Source: a virus
Virus record (IMG/VR): IMGVR_UViG_3300027985_000978
Span: 17,680-81,679 of that record
Reading direction: 5' to 3' (one strand)
Length of the DNA: 64,000 nucleotides
Below, piece by piece: positions 925 to 41,972 of this stretch. The translations under genes were made by a program, and so were the position numbers. Each line of letters starts with the position of its first letter. The stretch's first letter is position 1. A model generated the notes under the pieces. That model saw only the letters and a program-made list of their open reading frames with translations, was not told the DNA's origin and ran no database searches.

Positions 925-3900
925 ATGAACGCTATCGTAAGCAAGGCGGTTGCGTCTGTAATAGCGGCTCGAACACTTGAGCAGCTGTTAGGGACGTATG
1001 ACGCGCTATTTCCATTACTCCACCAGCAGGACGAACCAGCGCCAGTGTTTGGCGTAGAAAAACAATCTGGTGTATCCATCGAACGAACACGAAAAGAAGC
1101 GAACGCGGCGGCGCAAGCTATTCTGAAGCGTGTCGGAACCGATCACACGTTACTGACCGAAGAAGACAAAGCTGTTCTACGCCAGTATTCAGGGTTAGGC
1201 GGGATTGGTGGCTCTATCCATGAATACTACACGCCGCAATGGGTGGCCGAAGGCATTTGGGACGCTATGGCCGCCAATGGCATGGGTGCGGGTAACTTCT
1301 TGGAACCGTCAGCCGGTGCGGGTGTTTTCCACGGAACCAAACCACGCGGCGCAATCATGACCGCAACCGAAATCGATCAAACCAGCTCACAGATCAACCA
1401 GCTGTTACACCCTGAAGATCGCGTCAACAATTCATCCTTTGAAACGCTGGCTGTCAGTTCTGAAGATGGAACGTGGGACGGTGTAGTGGGTAACGTTCCT
1501 TTCGGTGAAACTCGCGGTAGTTATGGCGCACTCGATCCAGAATACGCGCATGTAAAGTATGTCGATGCGTATTTTGTCACTCGTATGCTGGACAAAATCA
1601 AAGCCGGTTCGATGATGTGCGTAGTAGTTCCAATGCGTATCGTGTCCGGCGCAAAATTTAAAGCGTTCCGCAAAGAAATATCTCTCAAGGGCGAATTCTT
1701 AGGTGCACACCGTTTGCCGTCTGGAACGTTCAGCAACAACGGAACGGATACCGCCACAGATATTCTTGTCATGCGTAAGCATCCAGAAGAGTTTTCAGAT
1801 TTGGTGAACTCACGAAAAACCACCGATCTGAAAGCGGCTAACGTGTTATGGGATACATTCATCAATGGCAAATGGTTTGAGACCTCCGAAGGGAAACGTT
1901 TTATCCACGGTGAACAATCTACAACCGGATCAGGAAAGTTTGCCCGTGAAGTAGTTGATCGGGGAAATATCACTAATGCACAGATCAAAGAGAAATTAGC
2001 GCACAAGTTTGAAAGCCGTATTGATTGGTTATCACTGGAACTGTCAGAACCAGTTGCGCCGGTTTACGGTGAAGGTGACGAACGCCTGATTAATGGCCGC
2101 TGGAACCGTCTTGTCAATGGTCAATGGCAGGTTATTTCCCTGACTGCAAGCGACGGTGACACAATCGACGCGGGAACGTATGGCGTGAACTCTATCAGCC
2201 AGCTAACCACCATGATTAATCAATCCCCACTGAATGCACTGGAACTGTCATACGATCAAGTTATGGCTGTTGCGCGTGACTTCCCACGGGTGACAGAAGG
2301 CGTGATCGCTGATGCTATTAAACTTGCGAACGCACAAGATCCGAAGTATCGAGAGCGCATTATCCGTGGCGTGCTGATTGGTCAGCGTATCCGCGACATG
2401 AACGACGAAGTGAACCAGACCGGCATAATTCCGATTGCTACCGCAGCTGAATTGCGCGACTTGGTGAACAACGAGATCGGAAAATATGGTGTTTCAGCTG
2501 GTGATAAGAAGATCGCAGCGCTAACCGGTGGCACTTCTGCCGCTGGCGCATGGAACCAGTTTGTTAGTGCAACGGATATCAACGGCAAATTCTCTGCCCT
2601 GCTTACCGGTACACTGCAACGCGGGGACACGAAAGCCTTTGATGATACCGACGCATCCCAAACTGTCGCCTATTTGTTCGGTCAATTAAACCTGAACCCT
2701 GTCGATTTAAGCGACTTTAACGATCTGTACCGTGGCGCAACTCCACCTACCCTGTCAGACCTTGCCAAAGTATCCGGTATCGCTATCACACCAGACGGCA
2801 TGTTAGCGCCAATGGATCGGGCAACGTGCGGAAATGTCGTTGAAACAACCAACAAACTGATCGCAGCAATGGCAACCACCAGCGATCCGGCGATTCTCAG
2901 TAACTACCAAGCGCAGTTAGACATGATTAACAAGCGCCGTAAGTGGTCTAAAGTCGATGACATTGAGATCACCATGTCTGCTAAATGGCTGCCGCGCCGC
3001 TATGCGCTCGATTTCCTGAAAGAAGTCGGTTATGAGGCTTTTGAATACTCAAAAGTGACCGACGTTGACGGCGAACTGGTTGATGACAAGGAATACAACG
3101 GCTTTGATGGTGTCTTCAGTGGCTACGGTATCCGTGATGGGAAAAAGCGCTCAAACCAAAACGAGCAGTTTGAACGCCAGTTAGAGAACTATCTAAACGG
3201 GGTAACAGTTCGATCCAGTGATGCTGCCGCAGCTGCCGGTTATCGCGCCCGTATTGCTGATATCGAGAAGCGTTTTGCAATCTGGATTCGCCAGCATGAT
3301 GACGTTCAGAAACTAACCGATCTCTACAATGACAAATTCAATGGATACGTCCCATTTGATCATCATGATGGTGATTTAGAGCTAGGGGACGATTACCTGT
3401 CCGGTAAAGTTGTGCCGTTCGGTTATCAGTGTTCTGGCGTGCGCCGTCTGTCTGAAGATGGGCGCGGGATTCTGGCGTTTGATACCGGCCTTGGTAAAAC
3501 TGCATCTGCCCTGTCGCTGGTGGCGTATAACACGAAGCTGGGCCGCGCTAAACGTACTGCAATCGTCGTCCCGCTGGCTGTGTTCGAGAACTGGTATCAC
3601 GAAGCAAAAACAGTTTATAGCGCAAAATTCTTTGAACAGTGTTTGTTTGCTGGCATTGAACCGGTACACACTCAAGACGGCATGATTGAGCAGGAAGCCG
3701 TACTGGATGACGAAGGCAACCCACGAACCGGCGCGAACGGTGAACCACTGACCCGCGATAAGCTCCGCCAGCTGTCCGGCGCTGAAATCACAGCACGCAT
3801 GAACTCAATTCCGCAAACAAACAAAGCTGTCGTTGTCATGACTAAAGAGCAGTTTGCATCTATTCCTATGCGCCCTGAATCAATCGAAGCGCGTTCAGAA

Positions 3901-6900
3901 AAGATGGTGGACTTGGGTATTGATTCCGGCAAGCTGCAAGCAATGGCTAAGAACCACACGCAAGCCATGAAAAAAGAGCGTGCCAAGGAAAAAGCCGCTG
4001 ACACTGGAACCCTGAAAAAGCTCGATATTCCTTACTTCGAAGATATGGGATTCGATAACGTCGTGATCGACGAAGGCCATAACTACCGGAACAGCTACAA
4101 GGCAGGCCGCGAAAGCAGCAAACTTGCTTATTTGCCAACGGCGCAATCAGCAAAAACAGCTATCGATCTGGCGGTTAAATCTGACTATCTGCGCAACAAG
4201 TACGACGGGCGCGGCGTCACCTTGCTGACCGCAACCCCAACGGTGAATAGTCCGATCGACATTTTCAACATGCTCTCTCACGTATTAAGCCCTGAAGAAT
4301 GGCAGGCTTACGGTATCTATGACGCTGACGACTTTGTGAAAGTATTCGGGGAAACCGAAGAAGTCATGGTGCAGAAACTATCCGGCCAAGTTGAGAACAA
4401 GCAAGGCTTAACAGGGTTTAAAAACTTAACCGGCCTACGCTCACTCTTCCACCGCTGGGTAAATCTGAAAGACGCTAAATCAGTGTCAGATACGGTCAAA
4501 ATCCCTGAACTGGACGAGCAGAAAACTGAAGCGCCAATGACTGAAGAACAAGCGCAAATCTATGAAACATTGCGTAAACGCGCCGAAGACCTTAGTCACG
4601 CTAAAGCATTAGGCATTGTCGAAACAGACGAAAACGGCTGGCCGATCCCTGAAGATTCTATCTTTGCCATTATTCGAGACATGGATCGCGTCTGTACTGA
4701 TACTGACTTGTATTACAAGACTATGACGTTCCGATTCCCAGCAAACAAGCTGGAAGAGGTTAAGCAGCTGGCCGCCGATTTACCCACTTCAAAAACTATC
4801 AAAGCAACTGCCAGTGACAAAGAGGATGAAGAGGCCGACACGGAAAGTTTAACCACGGATAGCGGCGCTAAAATCACCCCCGACGAGCACGCGGTTACAT
4901 TGGTTGTTCACGAAGCGTTTGAAGATGAAGTCATGAAGCGACTGAAAAAGTTCGGACTTGATAAGAAAGACGTTTCACACCCCGTTACACCAAAATATGC
5001 GCGTCTGTTGGAAAACCTGAAAAATGCCTATGAGAACGGCGGCAAACAGATCATCTTCACTGAAGAAAAGAGCCAGCATAACAAGTTAGAGCGCATCATT
5101 GCGCATCACTTGGGGATTCCATCTGAAGAAATCAGCATCATCAATGCTGCCACCGTCAAGGGTAAAGGATCTGAAGATGATTTACGCGGATTAGAACTGA
5201 TTGGTGCAGCCTTCAACGAAGGCAAAGTAAAAATCCTGATCTGTAACAAAAAAGCCGAAGTGGGCGTGAACTTGCACCACGGCACAACTGATATCCATCA
5301 CCTGACCTTGCCTTGGACACCTGCAAGCATTAAGCAGCGTAACGGGCGCGGCGCTCGCGTGGGTTCAAAGCAAGACAAGGTGCGCGTCTGGTATTACGTG
5401 GGTAAAGGTTCGTTTGATGAATTCCGCTTAGAAACACTGAAACACAAGGCGAACTGGCAAAATGAACTATTCACCTCCGATGCGGAACGCATGAAAAATG
5501 CCGACGCAGACGATGGCGCAGAAGCATCTTTGCTACTGGCTCAAGACCCTGAACAGCGTAAAGCGCGTATCGCAGAGAACCAGCGTAAAGCTGAAGAGAA
5601 GATCAAACAGGCGGCAATAATCCGCGCCAATATCGACCTGCACAACTTCCTGAAAGCGGCGCATGATGCAGCTGGCGATCCTGAAGTGGTAGCCCGTGAT
5701 TTAGAGCAGGCCAAGGCATTAATGGCAACGCTAAACCGGACGTATCAGAACGCGGTAAATAACGCCAATCAAAACCGTGAATATGCAGCTGAGTCTACTA
5801 CCATGAAAGACTGGTATCTCAGAAATGCAAAAGACTATGATCGAAAAGCTAAAGCCGCTCTGCCTAAGCTGAACAGCGCCCGAAAAGACGTTGCACGCTT
5901 AGAGCGTCAGTCTACCCGTATCGCTTCAGCCACCAGCACAATGAAACGCTTACGGCCTGAACTGGAACGCGCCCAGCGTGACAACCTGTTAGAGATCACC
6001 AGTGACCTGTTAGACAACGGTAGCCAATACCTGACAGACGGCAAGAAACTAATCAAGGCTGGAAGCATCTATAACAGCGTATCCGGTGGCAAAATTGCGC
6101 GTGTCGAATCATTCAACTTTGACACCAAATCAGCCGAAGTCACGTTGCTGTACCTGAAGGGCGAATACCAAAGCAGCAAGTTAAATACGACGACTTGGTG
6201 GGGGCTTGAGATTTTCGGCAACGAAACCAGTATCAGCATGTCCGAGATAGAAAAACTTCAGAAAATGATGAGCTCACTGGATCTGACCAAAGCGGTTGAG
6301 TTACTGGATAAAGCCGAGTTCAGCGAATACTTACAAGATGGAACACTGACGCTAACCGGTAGCGGTTATGTTTTTTATGATGATGAAGCTGGGTTCCAGT
6401 ATGAATCGTCGTACAGGATGGATAAGAAAGACCTGTCAAAAGTCATCTATCCAGATCCAAAAGATGAAGCGCTGAAGGCGAAAATGGCCGCGTGGCTGTT
6501 GAAAGATCGCAGCATGTTAAGCGACTACCGCTCCGAATATAACTGGATCAAGGCGGTATTCGGTGACAAGCCAACTCAGGCGGTGGAGAACTACGGGGTT
6601 AAAGCGCCAGAGCAAGTCATTAATGAGTGGCTGGCAGGCCGTATGAAAGCCTACAAGGATGCAGCTGACACACAAGGCGAATTGGAGAAACTGAACCGGC
6701 TTGAATCTAATGTTTATGGATGGAGTTTTGATTCATTCGCATGGCGAAACATGGAAACCCCGCCAGAATATCAGAATATCAGTGACTTTGAGGCTGCCGT
6801 TCAGCGTGGTAAAGAGATCCTGAAGTCTGAAGCCAAGACACTGACTGATGCAGCACAGGCGCGTGCAGCGACGAAATGGCAGGCGAAATGGACGATTGCA

Positions 6901-9574: not shown

Positions 9575-9859
9575 ATGGGATTATCAGTAGTACAGCGCGA
9601 CACACTTGAAATTATGTATCTCATTCGCCAGCAGATCGGAGATAAGCCGATCCCATCCATGAAGCTGTTAGAGATCCTGAACGACACACGCTCACACCGC
9701 GTACTGCCGCAAAATTTCCGCACGTCCTGTCATACGCTGGCACGACATGAACTGATTGCGCTCACACGGCATGAAACCAGCCTTAAACTATCCTTTGCAC
9801 TCACTAAAAAGGGACTGAAACAAGCTGAAACAATCCACCAGCAAAGGAGTCCTGAATAA
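9575..9859 (+). CDS. Small winged-helix DNA-binding protein
   Basis: 94 aa. NFRTSCHTLARHELI...FALTKKG fits a wHTH recognition helix and wing. Confidence 0.6.
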   Translation: MGLSVVQRDTLEIMYLIRQQIGDKPIPSMKLLEILNDTRSHRVLPQNFRTSCHTLARHELIALTRHETSLKLSFALTKKGLKQAETIHQQRSPE

Positions 9860-10056
9860 TGGCTATCCAGTTCAGAAAGCGCGTGCGACTGTTGCCGTTC
9901 CTATGGCTCAATCTTGGCAAAACGGGCGTATCATTCACCCTTGGGGTGAAGCCTATCTTTTTCACTTTCAGTAAGCGTGGGATCGGCTTTAGTGCATCCC
10001 TGCCGCGTACCGGTCTAAGTTATCGAAAACAACTCACCAGAAGAAAACCACAATAA
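9859..10056 (+). CDS. DUF4236-like small basic protein
   Basis: FRKRVRLLPFLWLNLGKTGVSFTLG...GLSYRK pattern. Confidence 0.65.
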   Translation: MAIQFRKRVRLLPFLWLNLGKTGVSFTLGVKPIFFTFSKRGIGFSASLPRTGLSYRKQLTRRKPQ

Positions 10057-10071
10057 TTTCACTACATATTG

Positions 10072-10101
10072 TTGACGGGTGCGATATGGGTGCGATATAT
10101 T
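10072..10101 (+). promoter_or_regulatory. Promoter with tandem 11-bp direct repeat in the spacer
   Basis: TTGACG-18-TATATT, with GGGTGCGATAT twice (10077-10098). Confidence 0.65.
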
Positions 10102-10176
10102 CAAATCGTACTCATTGAGTACCTACTAATTTAAGACGCCAGCCAATACCGGCAAGGCATAAAAAGGAGTTCAACC

Positions 10177-11304
10177 ATGTACTTTTCTAACGCTGCTCAA
10201 GCCTACACTTTCCTTTCTGATAAAACCGCTTATAACGCGCATGTATCCGCTGTTGCTGCAATCAAAAATGAATTAGGCGTTAAGAATTTTAAGGCGCTGG
10301 CATCTTCTTATCGCCATACTCAATCTGCACAAAAAGAAGCCCTTAAAGCTGTTAAAGGCGGCAAAAAATGCACTCAGTCACGATTCGTTGAACTGTGCAA
10401 AGAATACAGCTCTTTGCTTGAGTATCGTAAAAATATTCAGGCAGCTAAACACGCTCGCGCATATACATCCAGCAACACACCACGTAAAAACTGCACTGTG
10501 TTTGCATGGAACGCGCACTATTCATCCCAAAAAATGGATAACAAAAAAGTGCGTGATATGGCAATCAATCAGGGCCGTTGCGGTACTGAAGCCATGAAAG
10601 CAAAACGCTTAGACATCATTCGCGGCATCATTAGCCGTGAAGTTGTTCCGTCTGTATCTGGCTCTGAATCAATCACTGTTTCACTGGTCACTGATCCTGC
10701 GCTGGTTTCTTATAATTCACGCACCGATAAAGGCGATCAATACAGCAAACGTTGTACTTTCCGTAAAACTGACTTGTATGTGCATGTAAAACTGCCTGCA
10801 CAATGGTACAGCCGCGTTTACAAGCGCGATCTGTATGAAATTGACGGCCTATTTAATCTGGACGTATCAACCGCCCTGCATGGCAATTACGGTGAAGGCG
10901 TTGAAGTGTTCGCCGCCACTTGGTTAGTTGATAGTCGCGGTACATCTAAAAACGTTGTGCGTGGCTTTATCGCTCGTCGTGGTATCTATGCTTTTCATGG
11001 CAAAACCTTAGCCAGCGCTGTGCAAGGATTGGCGCGGAAATGTGAAATTCAATCTCTGATTCAATCAGAGCCTAGCGACATCATTGAACGCGCTAAAAAA
11101 GTGGACGGCGTACTTCACCTATCTGATAGCTATGCAGTCGGTAACTGTGAATGGGGTACGCTTGATTTCTGCGCTCGTCACAATATCGCCGTAACCGGTG
11201 AAAACCCATCTATCACAGTCAAAGAACTGGCTCAAAAAGTCGCACTCGAACCGCGCCGTGAAGCGCTGGCGGTTCTGGTTCGTGCAATCAAAAAACACAT
11301 CTAA
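10177..11304 (+). CDS. Hypothetical basic phage protein
   Basis: 375 aa, strong RBS AAGGAG. C-terminal GNCEWGTLDFC motif, function unknown. Confidence 0.7.
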   Translation: MYFSNAAQAYTFLSDKTAYNAHVSAVAAIKNELGVKNFKALASSYRHTQSAQKEALKAVKGGKKCTQSRFVELCKEYSSLLEYRKNIQAAKHARAYTSSNTPRKNCTVFAWNAHYSSQKMDNKKVRDMAINQGRCGTEAMKAKRLDIIRGIISREVVPSVSGSESITVSLVTDPALVSYNSRTDKGDQYSKRCTFRKTDLYVHVKLPAQWYSRVYKRDLYEIDGLFNLDVSTALHGNYGEGVEVFAATWLVDSRGTSKNVVRGFIARRGIYAFHGKTLASAVQGLARKCEIQSLIQSEPSDIIERAKKVDGVLHLSDSYAVGNCEWGTLDFCARHNIAVTGENPSITVKELAQKVALEPRREALAVLVRAIKKHI

Positions 11305-11366
11305 TTCTAGTCCCCACTAGCAAACCTGCCGCGCCTGTTATGGTGCGGCCTTTTGGAGTACCTATC

Positions 11367-11783
11367 ATGGCATCTGTAAAAAAATCTGTTCGTCTGATTG
11401 ATGCAACTATCCGTATTTGTCGCGTTATTTCCCGTATCAGCAAAGTAGCACCAGACAATGAAATTAACTGGTCTGGTTCGATTAACACTATGGCTGCCGA
11501 ATATGCGCTGATCATGGAAGAGAACAAACCAGAACTGACATTCAATCAATGGAACGCGCTTTACTGTCTGTATAACGGCTATATGCCGTCTGAATACCCT
11601 GAAAGAGAAGCACGGCTTTTGTGGTGGCACATTTCTGAAGGGTACACATGGGATGAACAGATAAAGGAATTCTTAGGCACGCAAGAAGCGGCGGCGGCCC
11701 TCATTGAAGAAGTGAAAGGATGGAACGTTGCCAAACAGCTATCAGCCATCTATCACGCCAAGGCGTTCTGGTCGGAGGTGTAA
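11367..11783 (+). CDS. Putative ribbon-helix-helix regulator
   Basis: RBS GGAG. N-terminal KKSVRL strand then helices (NWSGSIN...PELTFNQWNAL). Confidence 0.5.
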   Translation: MASVKKSVRLIDATIRICRVISRISKVAPDNEINWSGSINTMAAEYALIMEENKPELTFNQWNALYCLYNGYMPSEYPEREARLLWWHISEGYTWDEQIKEFLGTQEAAAALIEEVKGWNVAKQLSAIYHAKAFWSEV

Positions 11784-11875
11784 TCATGCAGCCACTAAAA
11801 ACACCTTTCACCACCTCACAGATTGATTAGGATAAGATCTCCCATTGGCTCGTAATGACAATGGGAGATCTTATA

Positions 11876-12313
11876 ATGACAACCACATTACCCCGTGGGA
11901 TTCGCAACAATAACGCCGGTAATATTGATTATCACGCATCAGTTCAATGGCAGGGATTAGACCCCGCAAAACCTTCTGACGGTCGATTCTGCCGGTTCAT
12001 CAAACCTGAGTATGGTATCCGCGCTATTACTCGTATCCTGCGCAACTACACTAAGCGTGACGGCACAGCTGGCGTGGGACTGAAGGGCATTGATACCGTT
12101 TATGAAATTATCAATCGCTGGGCTCCGCCAACAGAAAACGACACGGGCGCTTATATCGCCGCAGTCGCTAAAAATGCAGGCGTTGATCCGAAAGAACACA
12201 TCGAACTGACAGAAGAAAAACTGCTAGTTCTGGTGAAAGCGATTGTGAAGCATGAAAACGGGATTCAGCCGTATTCAGATAGCACCATTTTGGCCGGTAT
12301 TAAGTTAGCTTAG
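11876..12313 (+). CDS. Lysozyme-like protein (P5-type virion protein / endolysin candidate)
   Basis: PRGIRNNNAGNI, RFCRF..PEYGIRA, IINRWAPPTENDT, IVKHENG motifs. RBS lies in a 16-bp stem. Confidence 0.75.
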   Translation: MTTTLPRGIRNNNAGNIDYHASVQWQGLDPAKPSDGRFCRFIKPEYGIRAITRILRNYTKRDGTAGVGLKGIDTVYEIINRWAPPTENDTGAYIAAVAKNAGVDPKEHIELTEEKLLVLVKAIVKHENGIQPYSDSTILAGIKLA

Positions 12314-12366
12314 AGCCGCTTAAAACGACTTATTTGCAATCTCTTAAAAACTGATTAGGATAATCA

Positions 12367-12449
12367 ACGGGCAACTTACACAGTAACTTGAATAGGACAA
12401 GGCTGGGTAGGATGGGAAAAGGGCAGTCTTCGGACTGCCCTTTGTCTTT
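12367..12449 (+). ncRNA. Candidate trans-acting sRNA (sRNA1) complementary to late-gene leaders
   Basis: TTGCAA-16-TAGGAT promoter (12334-12361), no ORF, terminator at 12418-12449. Elements CGGGCAAC and AGGCTGGGTAGGATGGGAAA recur antisense in five leaders. Confidence 0.6.
12417..12449. terminator. Bidirectional intrinsic terminator
   Basis: AAAGGGCAGTC-TTCG-GACTGCCCTTT between convergent units. Confidence 0.85.
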
Positions 12450-12806
12450 CTAGCGGTTCAACAAGTTCAATAACGCATTGTGTCGTCTGACATGGGCCGG
12501 AACCGATTCAAACATATCTGAATCACTTTCTTCCGAATGATTACCGTCTAAATCGTCGCTGGTGGCCTCTGTCAGCCCCGTTACAGTGATTCCGGCACTT
12601 TCAAGCGCCATAGATACCCCGATTGGCGTAAATGCGCCTACAGCCATTCTACAGCCTCGCCCGTCCTGTTCGCCGTCGCTCATACCCTCAATTGTTTCCT
12701 GATATTCTTCTGGTGTAACAATCATTGCGGCTGGTTCGTCGGATGATTCGACATCGAACCGACACACCACCAGCTGATCAAACAATGTAAATGATAGTTC
12801 CTGCAT
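12450..12806 (-). CDS. Small acidic protein in the P1 hxr position
   Basis: 118 aa, coupled to ddrB. Assignment by synteny only. Confidence 0.55.
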   Translation of the reverse strand: MQELSFTLFDQLVVCRFDVESSDEPAAMIVTPEEYQETIEGMSDGEQDGRGCRMAVGAFTPIGVSMALESAGITVTGLTEATSDDLDGNHSEESDSDMFESVPAHVRRHNALLNLLNR

Positions 12807-15800
12807 TACTTACCCTGCCCTTCCAGTGATAACCCCTGCTTCCCCAGCCGCTTAACAATAGCAAGCATGAGCGCCAAGTGTTCAGGATCTTTCTGTGCTA
12901 GTTCCGCAATCCCTTTATCTGAAGACAAGCACCCCATCCCCATTGAAACAACTTCAGTCCAGCTAACGTCCGGCCATGTACCATAAACCCGCCCAACGTA
13001 TGGTTCGAAAAATCCATCATTGATAGCAACCTCATTCTTGCCATAACCAGCGCTTTGACACATATCAGCTAATTTGCGGATCGGACGCGGATCAGAAATC
13101 CCCGCGTAACGGCGCTTTAGTAATGCCGTGGCTTGTTCAAATACCCACTTATTATGAAATTCAATGAAGTGCCCGAACTCATGCCACAGCGTTTCTTTTG
13201 TGAGCGCGTTCCCGACATTCAACACCAAATCATAGGGGTTTGCACTGGCGCGTTTTTTCTTATATGCCAAGGTGATTTCTTCTACATTGCCGCCTGATAA
13301 CTGGTAAAGCGTTGCTAAGTCATCCCGAACATCTGGGATTGAGTATGTGCCAGCTAAACGAGTGGACGTTATTTTTACGGGCGTATTCTTTGCGCGTGCC
13401 TGCGCTGCCTCTGGCGTAACAACTGAATTTGCTAATGTATCCGCAATGATTTCCTTTACAGGGTTTATCCCTGCAATGATGTCTGCATTCTTCGCTGAAG
13501 CGATCTCTCGGTTTACTTCCCCCATTAACTTATTAGCAATTTTGAGAATGAAAATACCTTCCGAACGATACTCTTTAAACCAAGCGTTCAGGCCGTCATA
13601 AACAGCATCACGCGACATTGGCGGGTTAGCCTTAACTTTTTCGATAATGTCTTTCACTTTAGCGCTTAATGCCGCTCTGGATGTGGCGCTCATCTGCTTT
13701 GCATCTTTAACGCGCTTAACGGACGCCGTTATCAGTGATTCGTTAATCTGTTTATCTAAATTGTCATCAAAAAACACCGACGCATCAATGGTTGCAATAG
13801 ACAAGCCTTTCACTATGTCATGTATGGCATCAATATCTTTTTCAAAGTCAGTTTTAAGGCCGGTTGATTTATCGAACCACTCCAACAGATCGGGTATTGC
13901 GCGTGCTTTTTTCACTTTCGGTTTATAGAAGTCAAGGTTTCTAAGCATCTGAAAACCAGTTGCTTCAAGCATCACCACCGGTTGATATGCGCCGGTTGTA
14001 TCGCCGGTATCTAACCACTCTTTGAAATCATTCATGTGCAGCTGGTGGATCGACTCGGCGGCGTTCCAGCCCGTTTCGTAGTTCGATAGATAAGCATCAT
14101 GGGCGCTATCTCTGTCAGAAAATCCCAGCATTACCTTATGTTCGTCAAAATGCCCTGTTTCTTGGTCAATTTGATTCACAATAAATACTTGGTCACTATC
14201 CAGTTCGTCACCCAAGAAGAAATCAACGTGATCGCCGTCTGCGCCTTCGGTTCGTTTGATATATCCGTAGTGGTGCATCATCTTGCTTTCCCACTCTTTG
14301 CCGGACGCATCAACACCCCGACGAACTGAGCCTTTTGGATTCTCATAAGTGAGCGGTAGCCCGTGAAAATCTACATGTCCTTTCGTGTAATTTCCGGCTA
14401 TCTGTTGCGCTGGCGTTGGATCGATATTCACCAGCATTGCAGCTGCCGCGATCTGGCGTGCTAACACTGAGTCAAACATTCCCAGCGTCATTCCTGCTTT
14501 GTCTCCGTACTGTTCTTGCATCTGCTCTGATACCCGCGCCAGAACGGTGATTAAATCAAGTGGCGGTGCACCAAACATATCACCGGCTGCCTGCCCTTGG
14601 TGGGTTAGTTCAGCGTTAATTTCACCAGCTAATAGCCTGAAGGCTTCGCCCATGCGTTTTGCAGATCGGTTGTTGTCAGCAATGAATTTAGCCAGTGCTG
14701 CCGCACTTGGATCGGTATCGCCAAACAATGCGCCCTGCGCTAAATATTCATCAATGTTCTGGCCGGTTGATTTAGCCGTTCTGACAATCGTTGCAGCGTC
14801 CACCAGTGCGGCCAATGCTTCATTATCCAGACTGCTGTTAATCTCGATACCATCAGCCACGTTACTAGCTGTTTGTTTGTGGGCCTCACCAGATAAGTAG
14901 CGCATAGCGATAAAATCAGGCGCGGCGGCGTTCAGGGCCGTTAGAACGTTGCGGATTTCTGGATCTGGTTCTTCAACTGACAGCTTTAGTAGCTTTTCGT
15001 TTTGATAGGCTTTCGCAAAGATAGCGCCTTGTATCCGGTCTACTACCTGCTTTGTCGGTCTGCCGTCTGCCGTCATATAACCGGCTGCCTGTTCGCTGCC
15101 AAGTTTTTGCATGAATGCTTGAATGAAAGGCAGGTTACTAGCCGCCAGCAAATCCCCGCCCTCGGACGGTGAAAATAACGACATGGTTTTTTCATCCAGA
15201 TTTTCAGCATCTACCCGCGCCAGTTCGACGGGGCTCATGGCCTGCAAGTCTGAAATGTTTGAATCCTTGGTGAACTGCAAGCGGTCTACATCATCGAGCC
15301 GGACGCGCACTAATACCGGCTGTTCCATGCGTTCAACATCAGCACGTTTAAGCCCGTAGAGTTCAGCGTTATCAATTAGATATTTCCGGTAACTGTCAGC
15401 GTTCCCGTCTGCATAGGCTTTGATAATTGCCATCGAGCGCCCGTTCCCTGACTCAACTACTCGATCACTGCCAACAATCGGCGCACCGTGGCTGGATAAG
15501 CCGGAATCCGCCAGCTGTACCGGCCTTAATGACTTCGATAGTTTGGTGATCTGCATGATACTGGCTGCACGGGTACGATCACGCGGTTGTAGCTCTTGCG
15601 GATAAGCTGCATTGATCTTGCCATCCAGTGAGTTAGACGTAATCAGATCGCTGGCGTCCACCAGCTTAAAGGCTGTTTTGACTTCTTGGCCCTTAACCGT
15701 CACGACATAGCTTACACGGCCATGCTCCACCTGATCGGCTTGCGATACCCATTCATCATTGGCTGGGTTTGTAGCTTGATTGAAGACGGCCAAAAGTGAC

Positions 15801-15859
15801 TTTAAATCACTGGCCCCATGAACGGCTTGCGCCGCCTGTTCGACGTTTAGTGACTGCAT
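12806..15859 (-). CDS. ddrB: DdrB homolog: ddrB-ParB domain + inorganic-pyrophosphatase-like domain + zincin peptidase
   Basis: YPQELQPRDRTR, GAPIVG..VESGNGR (ddrB-ParB). GNYTKGHV...ENPKGSVRRG...HYGYIKRTEGADGDHVD...FDEHKVMLGF (InPase-like). WHEFGH (HExxH). dar operon position. Confidence 0.85.
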   Translation of the reverse strand: MQSLNVEQAAQAVHGASDLKSLLAVFNQATNPANDEWVSQADQVEHGRVSYVVTVKGQEVKTAFKLVDASDLITSNSLDGKINAAYPQELQPRDRTRAASIMQITKLSKSLRPVQLADSGLSSHGAPIVGSDRVVESGNGRSMAIIKAYADGNADSYRKYLIDNAELYGLKRADVERMEQPVLVRVRLDDVDRLQFTKDSNISDLQAMSPVELARVDAENLDEKTMSLFSPSEGGDLLAASNLPFIQAFMQKLGSEQAAGYMTADGRPTKQVVDRIQGAIFAKAYQNEKLLKLSVEEPDPEIRNVLTALNAAAPDFIAMRYLSGEAHKQTASNVADGIEINSSLDNEALAALVDAATIVRTAKSTGQNIDEYLAQGALFGDTDPSAAALAKFIADNNRSAKRMGEAFRLLAGEINAELTHQGQAAGDMFGAPPLDLITVLARVSEQMQEQYGDKAGMTLGMFDSVLARQIAAAAMLVNIDPTPAQQIAGNYTKGHVDFHGLPLTYENPKGSVRRGVDASGKEWESKMMHHYGYIKRTEGADGDHVDFFLGDELDSDQVFIVNQIDQETGHFDEHKVMLGFSDRDSAHDAYLSNYETGWNAAESIHQLHMNDFKEWLDTGDTTGAYQPVVMLEATGFQMLRNLDFYKPKVKKARAIPDLLEWFDKSTGLKTDFEKDIDAIHDIVKGLSIATIDASVFFDDNLDKQINESLITASVKRVKDAKQMSATSRAALSAKVKDIIEKVKANPPMSRDAVYDGLNAWFKEYRSEGIFILKIANKLMGEVNREIASAKNADIIAGINPVKEIIADTLANSVVTPEAAQARAKNTPVKITSTRLAGTYSIPDVRDDLATLYQLSGGNVEEITLAYKKKRASANPYDLVLNVGNALTKETLWHEFGHFIEFHNKWVFEQATALLKRRYAGISDPRPIRKLADMCQSAGYGKNEVAINDGFFEPYVGRVYGTWPDVSWTEVVSMGMGCLSSDKGIAELAQKDPEHLALMLAIVKRLGKQGLSLEGQGK

Positions 15860-15906
15860 ATCGCCTCATAAAAAATAAGGCTGGTGGATGGTCGGGCAAC
15901 TATCTT

Positions 15907-26275: not shown

Positions 26276-26692
26276 TTACGCAATGTTGGTATCAATGTAG
26301 CCTTCGACGACTAACGAGCGCTTGTCGTTGATCCAAATCGGTGTACTGGCTAATACCGCTACCAATCCGCCTTGGTCATCGAGCACGCCCAATGCCGTAA
26401 ACTTGCTTTGTGTTCCTTCTGCCACGGAACCAGCAGGCAGCACAGCGCGGATCGTAATGCGACCATTGGCATAGGTATAAATTGGATCATTAGTGAGGAA
26501 AATATCAGGGATGGCCGCCGTATCGAGCGGGATTGTCGCCACGGACGGTTGACCGTCTACCGTGTCTTCAAAGCCATCACCCCAGACAACCTGCCCCAAC
26601 TTAAAATCAGAGATCAAATTGATTGACGCTTGAGCACGACGCTCATAATAGCGCGTCATTAGTTGCGCATCGTAAAGTACGACTGTTGACAT
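26276..26692 (-). CDS. R: Tail fibre protein R homolog
   Basis: LY.AQL...YYERRAQASIN matches recalled P1 gpR; size and synteny agree. Confidence 0.8.
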   Translation of the reverse strand: MSTVVLYDAQLMTRYYERRAQASINLISDFKLGQVVWGDGFEDTVDGQPSVATIPLDTAAIPDIFLTNDPIYTYANGRITIRAVLPAGSVAEGTQSKFTALGVLDDQGGLVAVLASTPIWINDKRSLVVEGYIDTNIA

Positions 26693-26780
26693 ATTTAAGC
26701 CTCATGGGAATGAGGCCGGAAAGGATGGGAAACGGGCTTTGTTATGCTATCACAGCATCCTGTTTAACATGGGAAAGTGG

Positions 26781-38412: not shown

Positions 38413-38790
38413 TTACTCCTTGGTTTCAGTAACGGTTTGAGATTTGCGGCTGGTGGATTTCTTGTGTGCCGGTTTCGCGGGTTTCGCTGGTTCTTCCGCT
38501 GCCGTTTCCGGTTTAACTTCCGGCTCCGCTACTGGCGCTAATTCCTGAACCGGCGCAACTTCGACGGCTGGCGCTTCTTGCGCAACCGCATCACCAATCA
38601 CTTTGATTTGCACTGAAGGGATTGACGCTTTGATGTGACGGGTTAGCCAATCCGCGTGCTCTTGGCTGGCAACGTCAAACACCTGAAGCCCCCGCGTTGC
38701 GAACAGTGAGCGCACGGTGATACCGGCAAACTTGCCCGTACCATGCACGACAGCACGGCTACCAGTAGGGTTATAAACAGATAATTTCAT
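38413..38790 (-). CDS. Hypothetical protein between capsid and sheath genes
   Basis: 125 aa, RBS GAGGG, low-complexity P/A/E/K tail. Confidence 0.65.
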   Translation of the reverse strand: MKLSVYNPTGSRAVVHGTGKFAGITVRSLFATRGLQVFDVASQEHADWLTRHIKASIPSVQIKVIGDAVAQEAPAVEVAPVQELAPVAEPEVKPETAAEEPAKPAKPAHKKSTSRKSQTVTETKE

Positions 38791-38844
38791 TGATATTTAC
38801 CCTCGTTACAGGCGCGGCCAATCAGCCGCACCTATGCGCCACGA

Positions 38845-40488
38845 TTAAGCCGGTTGTGTGAAGGTCAGTTTGGTGAAGTAACGGCCACCGTCATTAGGGT
38901 GAACGTCGCAGTAAGCCAGTTCCCACAAGGTATTGCGGTCAACCAATGCTTTAGTGGTTTCGTGGTTGTAAAGCGTTGCAGGAACCGCATCACCGGCTAC
39001 GATACCGGCTTGGGTGTGCTGTTCGCCGCGTGCATAGCACAGACAGTCCCACGCGCCCAGCTTGGTATCTGTATCGCCTTTGATTGCTTCAACTTCAGTA
39101 GGTACTTCAAAGATTTTGAACTGACCAAACAGCACGCCGACATAGTGGATACGCGGTACTTGTTTATAGTTCGGGGCCATCTGGAAGAAGGTAGAGTCCA
39201 GCGATTTGATAACTGCACATGCCGCAGCACCCATGAACAGACCCACCAGACCAGAAACTTTTGTACGCACCAGCATGTCTTGAGACAGAGTGAGTAAAGT
39301 CTGATTCAGTGATTCGTAATGTTCAGAAGGTTTCAGGCCATCCGGTACGGTCAGATCGAATGAAGCGGTATCAGTTGCCGCGATCAACATTTTACGCAGG
39401 TTGCGTAAGTCTTTTTCATACGCAAGATAGTTGCGTAAATGGTTCATCTGCATAGAGCGCATATCGAGAGAGAATTCACGATTCATTGCCCAATACGCTT
39501 GAATGGTGTGCTCTGCCGCGATCACGGATTCATGCGGTTTCAGTTTCCATGATTGCATGTCATGAGTGATAGTCGGGATCAGGTCTGCTTTTGCTTCGAT
39601 GTCTACATCGAATTCCAGCATCAGCTTCATACCAGATGGCAGTTCAGCACCAGAAGTGATAACCGCAACACCTGTTGCATAGGTCAGTGTGGCGTTCAGG
39701 GTAATTTCAGTTTCACCAACGGTGACAGAACCAAACAACTTCGCTGATTGACCGTCGATTTCGGTAGCAACTACTTTGCGGTTTGCCAGCAGTTTGACCG
39801 TGCCTTTTTTGAACGGAACAACAGTCTGGAAGCCAGCAGTTGAAGAGTCGTAAGTGAAAGATGTTTTCACGCCATCCGGTTGTTGGTCAGCCAAGAACGG
39901 GTAGATCTGGTTCATTGACGCATATTGACCATTCGCAAACAGGCCGATTTCATCACCCGCTGTGTAGTCACCGAAGGTTGAGCCAGCCACGCGGCGGATT
40001 TCAAAAATTTCAGTTTCGTTTGCTTGTGCTGGGATGTAAGTTACAGCGTCAGAAGTTGCCGCCATCAGCATAACAGGCAGGATCAGACCGGCTTGTTTAG
40101 CGCGGATTTCAACACCTTCAGAAGTGGACAGGGAAGTACCGATACTTTCCAACATCTTCACATTACCGTCAGCTGAAATGCCGGTAGTGATATTGCGTAA
40201 TGATTGCGCCGCAGACGCTAAGATCTCGTCAGAAGGCAGCGTACCGTAGCAGTCATAGAATTCTTTGATAGCAGAACCCCACGCCACCGCAACACCACCA
40301 GCATGAGCGCCTAACGCTTCAAACATGGGATGTTTTTCAGCCATTGCAGCGATAGCGTTCATACGCGCTTTGTCGTCAGCGATAAAACCAGACTGATCAA
40401 ACATTGCATCGACACAAACGGCGCGGATCTGTTCCGAATCTTGAGTAATAGCAGCGACTCGCGCCGCGTGTTTTTGTTTAGCAGACAT
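38845..40488 (-). CDS. 23: Major capsid protein gp23
   Basis: ATG 40488 with RBS AGGGG, 547 aa. Position next to gene 22; contains MLES processing-like site. Confidence 0.85.
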   Translation of the reverse strand: MSAKQKHAARVAAITQDSEQIRAVCVDAMFDQSGFIADDKARMNAIAAMAEKHPMFEALGAHAGGVAVAWGSAIKEFYDCYGTLPSDEILASAAQSLRNITTGISADGNVKMLESIGTSLSTSEGVEIRAKQAGLILPVMLMAATSDAVTYIPAQANETEIFEIRRVAGSTFGDYTAGDEIGLFANGQYASMNQIYPFLADQQPDGVKTSFTYDSSTAGFQTVVPFKKGTVKLLANRKVVATEIDGQSAKLFGSVTVGETEITLNATLTYATGVAVITSGAELPSGMKLMLEFDVDIEAKADLIPTITHDMQSWKLKPHESVIAAEHTIQAYWAMNREFSLDMRSMQMNHLRNYLAYEKDLRNLRKMLIAATDTASFDLTVPDGLKPSEHYESLNQTLLTLSQDMLVRTKVSGLVGLFMGAAACAVIKSLDSTFFQMAPNYKQVPRIHYVGVLFGQFKIFEVPTEVEAIKGDTDTKLGAWDCLCYARGEQHTQAGIVAGDAVPATLYNHETTKALVDRNTLWELAYCDVHPNDGGRYFTKLTFTQPA

Positions 40489-40679
40489 TGAATTGCCCCT
40501 ATTGTTTAAAAAACGGCTAAGAGCTGGTTCTGACCAACTCCAAATAGGGCAACAAATTGTATGGGGGATGGGAGTGTAACCACTCAAGGGTCGTAAGCCG
40601 ATCTCTTGATTAGGAAGTGATTACACTGCAATCATATAACAAAGTTTTTGATCAGTGGTGAAACCTGTTTTTACAGGGG

Positions 40680-41459
40680 TTATGAGTTCAGGTAGTCGTT
40701 CATTACTGTTTTCGCATCATCCGGCATCATGGCTTCAGCAGCCGCCTGAAGACACGGATTTTTAAGGACGGACATCAGGACAGATGTTTGTACTGCCTGC
40801 TCAAATGAGCTGTATAAATCACTCCACATAGCTTCAGCTTCAGACACCATGCTTTGCAGGGTACTGGACGATCCGATCATGCTGGCTATCTTTGTGCCGA
40901 TATCATCCATAAGCGCCGCCAGCTGATCGATTTCCGGTTGTGTGAGTTCTTCCACGACACCCACGACACTGACAAAAAACGCCTCAATATCATCGAGCGG
41001 TAACAGGCCCAACAACTCGCGTATATCATCCGTGTTTCCGGTTGATGTCAGCACAGAGAACGCCGCACCCAACGGGCCGCAGCCACCCTCTACCTCACTC
41101 ATGTTTTGCGCAATGGTTGAGGCGACACCCATCACAGCCAGATTGCCAGCCGGATCGCTCATGCGGGTACTAATTGCTGCACTCAATGAATCCAGCACTA
41201 ACCCTGTGCCGGTCACACTGCCTTGGTGTGTCTTTAGTGTCTCTGCCGCCGCCAGCACTTCAGGCGGGACGTTCATCGGTAATTGCGTCAGTTCGTCGAT
41301 TGGCGGGTTATCCGAGATATCTGTAATGGCTTGAATTTGAGCAACAGCGCTATCCACATCACCACGCGCTGCCGTTGCTTTTGCACCAGCCGGAGAACTG
41401 AGACCGCCAGCCGCTTTCAGGGCGCGGTACATATCTTGCGAATAGATATTTTCTAACAT
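40680..41459 (-). CDS. upfB: UpfB homolog
   Basis: N-terminus MLE..Y....Y..L.AAGG...P resembles recalled P1 UpfB; near the PAAR gene. Confidence 0.65.
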   Translation of the reverse strand: MLENIYSQDMYRALKAAGGLSSPAGAKATAARGDVDSAVAQIQAITDISDNPPIDELTQLPMNVPPEVLAAAETLKTHQGSVTGTGLVLDSLSAAISTRMSDPAGNLAVMGVASTIAQNMSEVEGGCGPLGAAFSVLTSTGNTDDIRELLGLLPLDDIEAFFVSVVGVVEELTQPEIDQLAALMDDIGTKIASMIGSSSTLQSMVSEAEAMWSDLYSSFEQAVQTSVLMSVLKNPCLQAAAEAMMPDDAKTVMNDYLNS

Positions 41460-41564
41460 TTCTTGAGCCTCTTTTGAGGCGGGTAGGGATGGTCGGGCAA
41501 CCTGTTAGCGTACTATTTTTTTACACAGAAAATTATACACCACCTGAGTAGTGTCTATACACCA

Positions 41565-41972
41565 CTAGCCACCAACAGAAACGCCCATCAACTGGCCCAA
41601 CACATTCAGGATCATGCTTACACTTAACGGGGACGCGGGAACGTCAGCCGGTAATACGTGAAACGCCATGATCACAAAGTCTCGGATCAGCAGGTTGTAC
41701 GTCAGAGAAGCCACCAGCGCATAAATCAACGTCGCACGGGCCGCAGCAATGTACTTGCTTGAATTCTTCTCTTCGTTCGCTGTAATCACCGCCTGAATCA
41801 TGGCCGGTGATTGCTTGGCTTTTTCCATCAGTACAGACCACTGAGCCTTTTCTTCGTCGCTGGTAAACAGTTTGTCGCCAGCGTCCCCGATTGCCTCAAT
41901 GACACCAACAGCGCCATTTTCTACGCTGGTGGCCGTTGGAGCGCCCAACCCTAACATGCTTAATAAACCCAT
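41565..41972 (-). CDS. 3TM (GTA-type) holin-like membrane protein
   Basis: IG..GDKLFTSDEEK motif followed by TM segments. Confidence 0.65.
   Translation of the reverse strand: MGLLSMLGLGAPTATSVENGAVGVIEAIGDAGDKLFTSDEEKAQWSVLMEKAKQSPAMIQAVITANEEKNSSKYIAAARATLIYALVASLTYNLLIRDFVIMAFHVLPADVPASPLSVSMILNVLGQLMGVSVGG

What the first reader, a model, noticed from the sequence alone, without database searches (positions are those of the whole stretch)
40489..40620. Major capsid leader: long-range RBS sequestration with both sRNA1 sites
Seen: mRNA UUGCCCUAUU (40552-40543) pairs with AAUAGGGGCAA (40503-40493, the RBS) around an inner GAGUUGGU/ACCAGCUC hairpin. The anti-RBS arm is complementary to sRNA1 GGGCAAC and AAUAGG, and the upstream UCCCAUCC (40572-40565) to GGAUGGGA, in colinear order. 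An operator lies at 40607.
Basis: partly seen in the sequence, partly recalled or inferred. Interest (0 to 1): 0.7.

Follow-up and report, generated by a model that had tools for sequence, protein, structure and literature searches.

The report
Capsid mRNA leader locked, sRNA-openable
The leader of the major capsid gene of a distant P1-like phage folds so that its ribosome site is hidden, and a small phage RNA that is conserved in related phages matches the hiding strand, so it probably switches capsid translation on.

Summary
The window is part of an 81.7-kb P1-like phage record. The described elements are all present. One coordinate is off by one: UCCCAUCC lies at 40573-40566. The minimum-energy fold pairs UUGCCCUAUU with the RBS around the inner hairpin.

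In this genome alone the masking is weak evidence. 31 of 300 shuffled leaders hide the SD as well, and the gene ranks 3rd of 59 for SD inaccessibility.

Comparison supports it better. 'sRNA1' (12366-12450) has an operator-overlapped promoter and a terminator. It has homologues in three IMG/VR relatives and three Aeromonas plasmids. In three lineages the capsid leader carries a site matching that lineage's own G-rich sRNA segment, next to a conserved GUUGCCC. Co-fold gain falls in the top 1-5% of genomic windows (21/710, 10/400, 20/424, 4/388). Masking the sRNA sites roughly halves the modelled cost of opening the RBS in 5 of 5 leaders.

The capsid leader is not the sRNA's best target; the tail-fibre operon leader is. 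The AAUAGG match is probably chance. No expression data exist. An earlier agent of this scan had already described the sRNA. I judge translational activation likely, at about 0.55.

The parts
40631..40636 (-). Candidate -10 hexamer TATGAT of the capsid-gene promoter; likely start near 40624
   Evidence: GTTATATGATTGC aligns with GTTATAAGATTGC in the Aeromonas plasmid L081 and with CGCTATGATC in L009/L010/L032. In each case an operator box follows about 13 nt downstream. The consensus scan did not call it, because the -35 is poor. The start site is inferred, not mapped.
40607..40618 (+). Operator-like box TGATTAGGAAGT, read ACUUCCUAAUCA in the leader, at about +6 to +17
   Evidence: There are 10 exact TGATTAGGA copies in the window and 16 in the genome. 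The extended contexts are shown. Relatives carry GGTTAGGATGT at the same place in their capsid leaders. Assignment to a C1-like repressor is inferred from the P1 analogy (recalled).
40579..40624 (-). 5' stem-loop of the leader (GUAAUCAC...GUGGUUAC enclosing CAAG..CUUG)
   Evidence: Seen in the MFE of the leader cut at the inferred start. No comparative support.
40562..40573 (-). B-site UCCCAUCC+CCCA, complementary to sRNA GGAUGGGA and UGGG (sRNA 12406-12417 with a 2-nt bulge)
   Evidence: It pairs with the sRNA at p>0.5 in the dimer ensemble. The equivalent sites co-vary with each lineage's sRNA: CCCUUCCCC / CCCCUUUCCC / CCCCUUCCUU in G002/G003/G001, and CUUCACUCC in W03.
40543..40553 (-). A-site and anti-RBS arm: GUUGCCC (40553-40547) is complementary to the sRNA 5' end GGGCAAC; UUGCCCUAUU (40552-40543) pairs with the RBS
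   Evidence: pair probabilities 0.61-1.0 for the core. GUUGCCC is invariant in the capsid leaders of WIN, L009, L010 and L032, and is also present in L079, L080 and L081.
40521..40540 (-). Inner hairpin GAGUUGGU-CAGA-ACCAGCUC
   Evidence: Relatives have a GC-rich hairpin here that a simple scan calls terminator-like. The window's own hairpin is not called.
40508..40513 (-). U6 tract in CCGUUUUUU, conserved as CCGUUUU in relatives
   Evidence: Alignment A3 and L011. Its function is unknown. A ribosome or Hfq contact is a guess.
40493..40503 (-). RBS arm AAUAGGGGCAA with SD AGGGG (40500-40496)
38845..40488 (-). Major capsid protein gene (547 aa from ATG 40488)
   Evidence: 36% identity over 99% of its length to P1 gp23. 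phrog_1014 at E = 6e-135.
12366..12450 (+). sRNA1, the proposed trans-acting partner: -35 TTGCAA at 12335-12340, operator box at 12352-12360 over the -10, about 82-nt body, terminator at 12418-12443
   Evidence: Homologues with the same layout occur in G001, G002, G003, W01 and W02 and W03. No Rfam family matches.

Best explanation
The capsid mRNA starts at an operator-controlled promoter near 40624 and carries a leader of about 135 nt. In that leader UUGCCCUAUU pairs with the ribosome site across an inner hairpin, which keeps translation low.

The phage's own small RNA (12366-12450) is made once the repressor leaves its operator. It pairs through its G-rich 3' segment with UCCCAUCCCCCA and through its 5' end GGGCAAC with GUUGCCC of the masking arm. 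This forms a three-way junction that displaces the arm and frees the ribosome site. That is anti-antisense activation, the logic of a toehold switch.

The capsid gene would be one of several late genes under this RNA. Together with the shared operator this makes a feed-forward AND gate: the late proteins need both derepressed transcription and the sRNA.

Shown by computation: the sequence elements, the fold, conservation of the layout, and co-variation of the sites. Inferred: the start site, expression of the sRNA, the direction of the effect, and repressor control.
For: 1. The fold is present.

2. RBS masking recurs with other sequences in the capsid leaders of L009, L010, L032 and L081, and in 9 Vibrio-type leaders. 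The fold call printed the same outer stem in all 9, with 1 of 20 pairs showing a double change.

3. The sRNA unit is conserved with its operator, promoter and terminator in 6 other records.

4. The sRNA's best non-self match genome-wide is the leader of the same orthologous tail-fibre-assembly gene in 4 of 4 genomes. There it overlaps the 5' arm of an SD-masking hairpin and co-varies. So the sRNA does appear to act on masked RBSs.

5. In the capsid leader the lineage-specific B segment has a matching site beside GUUGCCC.
- WIN: GGAUGGGA with UCCCAUCC.
- G001-3: GGGGAAGGGG with CCCUUCCCC-type sites lying on the masking arm itself.
- W03: GGAGUGAAG with CUUCACUCC, directly 5' of GUUGCCCC.

6. 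Co-fold gain against genomic windows of the same length:
- WIN -13.8 kcal/mol, 21 of 710 as good.
- G001 -16.0, 10 of 400.
- G002 -13.7, 20 of 424.
- W03 -16.3, 4 of 388.

7. In the WIN dimer ensemble the sRNA pairs at p>0.5 with exactly UCCCAUCCCCCA and GUUGCCC.

8. Masking the sRNA sites lowers the modelled cost of opening the RBS window in 5 of 5 leaders: 10.5 to 5.0, 11.0 to 6.9, 13.3 to 7.3, 15.6 to 7.3, and 11.0 to 5.5 kcal/mol.

9. The -10 and operator positions are conserved upstream of all elements.
Against: - There is no RNA evidence of any kind. No RNA run is listed for this DNA (this is a blank, not evidence).
- Per genome, the masking is not significant: 31, 21, 39 and 31 of 300 shuffles hide the SD as well.
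- The complementary stretches are short (8+4 and 7 nt). The capsid leader is absent from the top 14 (WIN, G001-3) or top 10 (W03) local-alignment hits of the sRNA. Its B score is reached by 5-7% of windows.
- G003's co-fold MFE keeps the masking helix, with a gain of only -11.4 and no background computed.
- In the WIN dimer ensemble the SD unpaired probability stays at 0.23 to 0.25, because the freed RBS refolds weakly with the first codons.
- C-rich anti-SD strands and G-rich SD-like seeds match partly through composition alone, and the random-window controls do not remove this.
- In G004 and G005 (candidate sRNAs found), the capsid leader is not among the top 10 targets.
- P1 itself has a short, unstructured gene-23 leader.
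- G001-3 are close to one another, so the independent lineages number about three.
Confidence: 0.55

Rival explanations
1. The RBS-masking fold is functional but does not depend on the sRNA. It would set a low or timed translation rate by itself, or be opened by processing of the leader (for example by a double-strand-specific RNase), by ribosomes arriving from the upstream gene, or by temperature. The sRNA matches in this leader would then be a by-product of a C-rich anti-SD strand meeting a G-rich seed.
For: - Masking recurs in Vibrio-type leaders that show no C-rich sRNA site.
- The capsid leader is not a top-ranked sRNA hit.
- SD accessibility does not rise in the WIN dimer ensemble.
Against: - The B-site changes together with the sRNA in three lineages.
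- GUUGCCC is kept even where it no longer pairs with the RBS, as in G001-3.
- Co-fold gains lie in the top 1-5% in 4 genomes.
- The upstream gene ends 191 nt before the ATG, so direct translational coupling is unlikely.
Confidence: 0.22
2. The inner hairpin plus the U tract is a transcription terminator or attenuator. It would gate read-through from the operator-controlled promoter into the capsid gene. This would resemble the terminator-ended leader that another agent of this scan reported before the mat gene. RBS pairing would be secondary.
For: - In L009 and L010 the equivalent hairpin (GCGGC..GCCGC followed by CCGUUUUCU) is called terminator-like.
- CCGUUUU is conserved.
Against: - In the window the U6 tract lies 7 nt after the stem, and the scan calls no terminator in 40300-41000.
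- In L011 the spacing is larger still.
- The flanking arms pair with the RBS in all members of the clade, which a plain terminator does not need.
Confidence: 0.12
3. Nothing regulatory is present. The pairing and the sRNA matches are chance features of an ordinary intergenic leader.
For: - Shuffle control: 31 of 300.
- Fold z-score only -1.66.
- The matches are short.
Against: - The layout and the promoter/operator position are conserved in three lineages at 57-60% capsid identity.
- The sites co-vary.
- In WIN, both sites together are reached by 20 of 2364 windows.
Confidence: 0.08

Closest known systems
DsrA/RprA/ArcZ activation of rpoS translation in E. coli (anti-antisense; recalled knowledge; StxS-rpoS is mentioned in PMC12197685, passages seen)
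   Same: A long 5' leader folds so that an upstream strand masks the RBS. A trans sRNA with a Rho-independent terminator pairs with the masking strand and frees the RBS.
   Different: Here both the sRNA and the target are phage genes, and the target is a structural late gene. The sRNA uses two separated segments (5' end and 3' G-rich segment). Nothing has been tested, and Hfq dependence is unknown.
IsrK sRNA of the Gifsy-1 prophage (passages of review PMC12197685 seen)
   Same: A prophage-encoded sRNA activates translation of a prophage mRNA in trans.
   Different: According to those passages IsrK acts on orf45/anrP, upstream of an antiterminator, not on virion genes. There is no sequence or layout relationship. 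The capsid term has 0 occurrences in that review.
c4 antisense RNA of phages P1/P7 (immI; Rfam family C4; mechanism recalled and mentioned in PMC12197685)
   Same: A small RNA of a P1-type phage sits behind a repressor-controlled promoter and uses two short segments to pair with two sites in a target leader.
   Different: c4 inhibits ant expression and is cut out of the transcript it controls. sRNA1 is a separate unit with its own terminator and would activate. No Rfam match was found at gathering score or at E up to 10.
Phage T4 late genes with RBS masked in early transcripts (e, soc, I-TevI; recalled knowledge)
   Same: The RBS of a late gene is hidden in a hairpin formed with upstream leader sequence.
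   Different: In T4 the release comes from a late promoter inside the hairpin. Here no promoter-like site lies between the arms, and only 15 nt separate the possible A/T-rich hexamers from the ATG.
Synthetic riboregulators / toehold switches (recalled knowledge)
   Same: A cis-repressed RBS is opened by a trans RNA that pairs with the repressing strand, starting from an adjacent single-stranded site.
   Different: This is a natural element with a multi-target sRNA, and the pairing is split over two sRNA segments.

Membership tests
sRNA-activated (anti-antisense) mRNA leaders, rpoS type | RBS sequestered by pairing with an upstream leader strand | tested here: met
   The MFE and centroid contain the helix. 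Pair probabilities are 0.61-1.0. The modelled opening cost is 10.5 kcal/mol. The statistical support is weak in one genome: 31 of 300 shuffles.
sRNA-activated (anti-antisense) mRNA leaders, rpoS type | A trans sRNA complementary to the masking strand | tested here: met
   GGGCAAC matches GUUGCCC within the arm, and GGAUGGGA matches UCCCAUCC 10 nt upstream. The match co-varies in G001-3 and W03.
sRNA-activated (anti-antisense) mRNA leaders, rpoS type | sRNA binding increases translation | not testable with these tools
   Only modelling is available. The opening cost falls from 10.5 to 5.0 kcal/mol when the sites are masked, but SD unpaired probability goes only from 0.23 to 0.25 in the dimer ensemble.
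sRNA-activated (anti-antisense) mRNA leaders, rpoS type | The transcript starts upstream of the masking strand | tested here: inconclusive
   A conserved -10 and operator lie at 40636-40607, and no promoter-like site lies between the arms. No RNA data exist.
Rfam C4 antisense RNA (P1/P7 c4) | Match to the family covariance model | tested here: not met
   No match in the whole window at gathering score. No match in 9800-12900 at E up to 10.
Intrinsic terminator / attenuator in the leader | GC-rich stem followed within 0-2 nt by a U tract | tested here: not met
   No terminator is called in 40300-41000; the U6 tract starts 7 nt after the stem. The criterion is met in relatives L009 and L010.
T4-type late-promoter release of a masked RBS | A promoter between the masking strand and the RBS | tested here: not met
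   No promoter-like site is found. P1-type late-promoter boxes (seen in the annotation of LP23) were not searched for systematically.
P1-type C1 operator regulon | An asymmetric box repeated at many promoters of the genome | tested here: met
   There are 10 exact copies in the window and 16 in the genome, mostly intergenic. The repressor gene itself was not identified here.

The most novel reading that the evidence does not exclude
A repressor-controlled phage sRNA acts as a master translational switch for virion production in a clade of P1-like phage-plasmids. It would open masked ribosome sites of the capsid, scaffold-like, internal-head (Dar-like) and tail-fibre genes. It would use two separate seed segments that clamp each leader, in colinear order on the capsid leader and in permuted order on others. 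Late protein synthesis would then need both derepressed transcription and the sRNA. This would be a natural multi-target toehold-switch circuit.
Probability: 0.4. Interest if true: 0.8.

Novelty: new variant of a known kind. Interest (0 to 1): 0.55.

Why it matters
Late gene control in P1-type phages is described as transcriptional (C1 repressor, Lpa activator; recalled). A phage sRNA that unlocks translation of the capsid and other virion genes would add a post-transcriptional layer to the lysis-lysogeny switch of phage-plasmids, a group that carries resistance genes in enterobacteria and occurs widely in Vibrio and Aeromonas.

It would also be a natural counterpart of engineered toehold switches. 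It is easy to test with a two-plasmid reporter.

In the searches I ran I found no paper describing sRNA activation of a phage capsid gene. Those were listings only; passages of one 2025 review, in which 'capsid' occurs 0 times.

This report adds one target to an sRNA that the scan had already described, so its own increment is moderate.

Tried and rejected
- **Closest relatives.** Capsid proteins P0002-P0005 are 79-81% identical. A single-protein scan of viral contigs found no relative.
- **Megablast to phages.** No match.
- **Rfam.** Nothing at gathering score in the window. Only chance-level hits at E up to 10 around the sRNA and the leader.
- **tRNA scan.** None found.
- **RNA data.** No RNA holder is listed for 38845-41600; 2 DNA holders may be the source sample.
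- **RNAduplex of the whole sRNA body against 80-nt windows.** This gave unrealistically long looped duplexes (background mean -24 kcal/mol) and was dropped. A first version timed out.
- **A permissive local-alignment scan.** It was dominated by long gapped noise.
- **Alignment-based covariation of the four clade leaders.** Uninformative, because the window's masking arm sits in a different register.
- **The 9 Vibrio-type leaders.** Only 1 double change was found in 20 pairs.
- **Search for the endolysin-like neighbour of the sRNA in relatives.** It found nothing, so the sRNA homologues were found through the operator box instead.
- **BLAST of the sRNA against relatives.** No homologue found.
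- **G007 and G008.** No sRNA candidate was found.
- **AAUAGG/CCUAUU as a third site.** Rejected. It is a 6-mer, it overlaps the GGGCAAC target, and relatives have no counterpart.
- **T4-type internal promoter.** Rejected.
- **Supplements.** Supplementary files of papers were not consulted.

Full report
**What the window is.** The window is bases 17680-81679 of an 81,679-bp IMG/VR virus record with direct terminal repeats. The 547-aa product of 38845-40488 (minus strand) is 36% identical over 99% of its length to gp23, the major capsid protein of phage P1. Its neighbours are a tail sheath, a baseplate hub and a PAAR protein. This is therefore a distant P1-like phage. The closest capsid relatives in the large protein set are 79-81% identical, but their contigs could not be fetched. 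Relatives I could read are about 60% identical: IMG/VR contigs L009, L010 and L032 (records G001-G003). Three Aeromonas plasmids are 57-58% identical.

**The observation.** All the elements are in the sequence. UUGCCCUAUU (40552-40543) and AAUAGGGGCAA (40503-40493) form 10 pairs with one bulged G. The inner hairpin at 40540-40521 lies between them. The SD is AGGGG (40500-40496) and the ATG is at 40488. The minimum-energy and centroid folds both contain this arrangement, and the core pairs have probabilities of 0.61-1.0. The sRNA words lie together at 12369-12417 on the plus strand, and their complements lie in the leader. UCCCAUCC is at 40573-40566, one base off the stated coordinates. TGATTAGGA at 40607 is one of 10 exact copies in the window and 16 in the genome.

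**Is it more than chance in this genome alone?** Only weakly.
- The leader's fold z-score is -1.66.
- With the upstream part dinucleotide-shuffled, the SD window is hidden as well in 31 of 300 trials.
- Among 59 genes of the window, this gene has the third least accessible SD region (0.22 against a median of 0.44).
- Local-alignment scores of the two sRNA segments against the leader are reached by 169 and 118 of 2364 genomic windows, and both together by 20 of 2364.
- The co-fold gain of sRNA plus leader is -13.8 kcal/mol; 21 of 710 windows do as well.

**The partner RNA is a real, conserved unit.** Region 12335-12450 has a -35 TTGCAA and a -10 overlapped by an operator box. It has a body of about 82 nt and an 11-bp terminator, and it lies between convergent genes.
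- Relatives use the box GGTTAGGATGT. Each of G001, G002 and G003 has a homologous unit behind such a box.
- Two Aeromonas plasmids have copies 92-93% identical to that of G002.
- A third plasmid (W03) has a more divergent unit whose 5' end CGGGCAAC equals that of the window.
- Candidate units with a G-rich segment next to a terminator also exist in G004 and G005.
- No Rfam family matches.
- After reaching this point I read the scan's earlier notes. Another agent had already described this sRNA as a conserved riboregulator of late leaders. My results agree with that.

**What the sRNA does elsewhere.** In 4 of 4 genomes (WIN, G001-G003), the best non-self complement of the G-rich segment genome-wide is the leader of the same orthologous gene. 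That gene is a tail-fibre-assembly-like protein (26276-26692; phrog_2032). The site overlaps the 5' arm of a small hairpin that hides the SD, and it co-varies with the sRNA. Two further leaders in the window carry GUUGCCCGACCAUCC just 5' of an SD-hiding hairpin: upstream of 12806-15859 and upstream of 40680-41459. The orthologue of the first in W03 has longer matches to both segments of the W03 sRNA. This is the context in which the capsid leader should be judged. The sRNA appears to act on masked ribosome sites, which argues for activation.

**The capsid leader in relatives.** The leaders of G001-G003 share several features with the window:
- a -10 TATGAT followed by the operator box;
- a C-rich stretch;
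- the invariant GUUGCCC;
- a GC-rich inner hairpin;
- CCGUUUU;
- an RBS that pairs with the C-rich stretch.

In G001-G003 the sRNA core GGGGAAGGGG is complementary to the masking arm itself (CCCUUCCCC, CCCCUUUCCC with one G-U, and CCCCUUCCUU with two G-U). GGCUGG is complementary to CCAGCC a few bases downstream.

In W03 the RBS AUUAGGGGCAAU and the arm GUUGCCCC resemble the window's. CUUCACUCC, a perfect 9-nt complement of the W03 sRNA segment GGAGUGAAG, lies one base 5' of the arm.

So in three lineages the site next to GUUGCCC changes together with the sRNA. Co-fold gains are -16.0 (10 of 400 windows as good), -13.7 (20 of 424) and -16.3 (4 of 388) for G001, G002 and W03. G003 gives -11.4, and its MFE keeps the masking helix. 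Masking the predicted sRNA sites lowers the modelled cost of opening the RBS window in all five leaders, in the window from 10.5 to 5.0 kcal/mol.

**Results against the reading.**
- The capsid leader is not among the top 14 local-alignment hits of the sRNA in WIN and G001-G003, nor among the top 10 in W03.
- In the dimer ensemble of the window the SD unpaired probability stays at 0.23-0.25, because the freed RBS refolds weakly with the first codons. In G001-G003 it rises from 0.03-0.18 to 0.33-0.52.
- In G004 and G005 the capsid leader is not among the top 10 targets of the candidate sRNAs.
- Vibrio-type capsid leaders hide their RBS in a long stem but show no C-rich site.
- P1 has a leader of about 45 nt with no significant fold.
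- Random-window controls do not correct for the shared C-rich/G-rich composition of anti-SD strands and SD-like seeds.
- No transcript data exist.

**Start site.** The stretch GTTATATGATTGC (40640-40628) aligns with GTTATAAGATTGC in W03 and CG(C/T)TATGATC in G001-G003 and L079. In each case the operator follows about 13 nt later. This places the likely start near 40624, upstream of every leader element. No promoter-like site lies between the arms.

**Mechanism and rivals.** I commit to sRNA-mediated anti-antisense activation (0.55). The rivals are:
- sRNA-independent masking (0.22);
- a leader terminator or attenuator (0.12). This is favoured by the terminator-like hairpin in relatives but not by the window's own geometry;
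- chance (0.08).

The AAUAGG match is best treated as chance.

**Comparison and novelty.** The logic is that of DsrA-rpoS and of synthetic toehold switches (recalled). Among phage RNAs, the nearest in print that I saw are IsrK of Gifsy-1 (an activator of a prophage mRNA) and c4 of P1/P7 (an inhibitor), both seen as passages of a 2025 review. My searches listed no paper on sRNA activation of a capsid gene (listings only). I rate this as a new variant of a known kind. The sRNA itself was already reported by this scan, so this finding adds the capsid gene as a probable, mid-strength target. It also adds a third co-varying lineage (W03).

Noticed in passing
window 26696-26732 (minus strand), IGR 26693-26780: The leader of the tail-fibre-assembly-like gene (26276-26692) is the sRNA's best target. 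UUUCCCAUCCUUUCCGGCCU pairs with the sRNA at 19 of 20 positions (hand count) and overlaps the 5' arm of the SD-hiding hairpin GCCUCAU/AUGAGGC. The orthologous leader is the top non-self hit in G001, G002 and G003 too. A conserved TGTGATAGCATAAC lies just upstream.
   Followed up: partly
window 15879-15900 and 41482-41503 (minus strand): An identical 15-mer, GTTGCCCGACCATCC, sits in two leaders just 5' of SD-hiding hairpins (GCCU..AGGC and GCCUC..GAGGC). One leader precedes the DarB-like gene 12806-15859 and the other precedes the DUF7217 gene 40680-41459. The order of its two sRNA-complementary parts is permuted relative to the sRNA, so simultaneous pairing would need a clamp-like or pseudoknot-like topology. 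The W03 orthologue keeps this order with longer matches.
   Followed up: partly
G000 genome 5439-5453 (minus strand), outside the window (17.6-kb part before it): There is a perfect 15-nt complement of the sRNA 5' end (nt 2-16), about 0.006 expected by my estimate. It lies in the loop of the hairpin CCUGUUU..AAACAGG. This is about 50 nt upstream of a possible small ORF. Two operator boxes and a 510-aa coiled-coil-like gene (3502-5034) follow. It may be a c4/ant-like second role of the sRNA.
   Followed up: partly
window 41517-41540 (minus strand): A perfect extended -10 (TGTATAAT), preceded by a repeated GGTGTATA, lies about 70 nt upstream of the DUF7217 gene, ahead of its sRNA-complementary motif.
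   Followed up: no
L002, L012-L016, L018, L020, L033 (Vibrio-type P1-like elements), 125 nt before the capsid ATG: The capsid RBS UAAGG is buried in a long stem (AAUAAAUCUUA / UAAGGUUUAUU). L016 has a differently spelled but still pairing version. The leaders also hold two TCCGAA(C) boxes that look like that clade's operator.
   Followed up: partly
G005 11141-11520 (plus strand): The Vibrio-type element has a candidate sRNA, GGGAUGGGGAAUAGGAAAGG plus a terminator. Its best target is the tail-fibre-assembly leader (17 pairs, one G-U, hand count). A second GGGAUGGGGA copy lies 280 nt upstream.
   Followed up: partly
G004 about 10390-10480 (minus strand); targets at G004 47498 and 30175: A candidate sRNA with GCGCGGGGGUGGGUUAG plus a terminator sits behind a GTTAGGA box. 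It has two 15-nt near-perfect complements, each ending 16-17 nt before a start codon.
   Followed up: no
window 38791-38844 (minus strand): The gene just after the capsid gene (38413-38790) has the least accessible SD of the 59 genes tested (0.10). A GC-rich hairpin, GGCGC..GCGCC, lies in its short leader.
   Followed up: no
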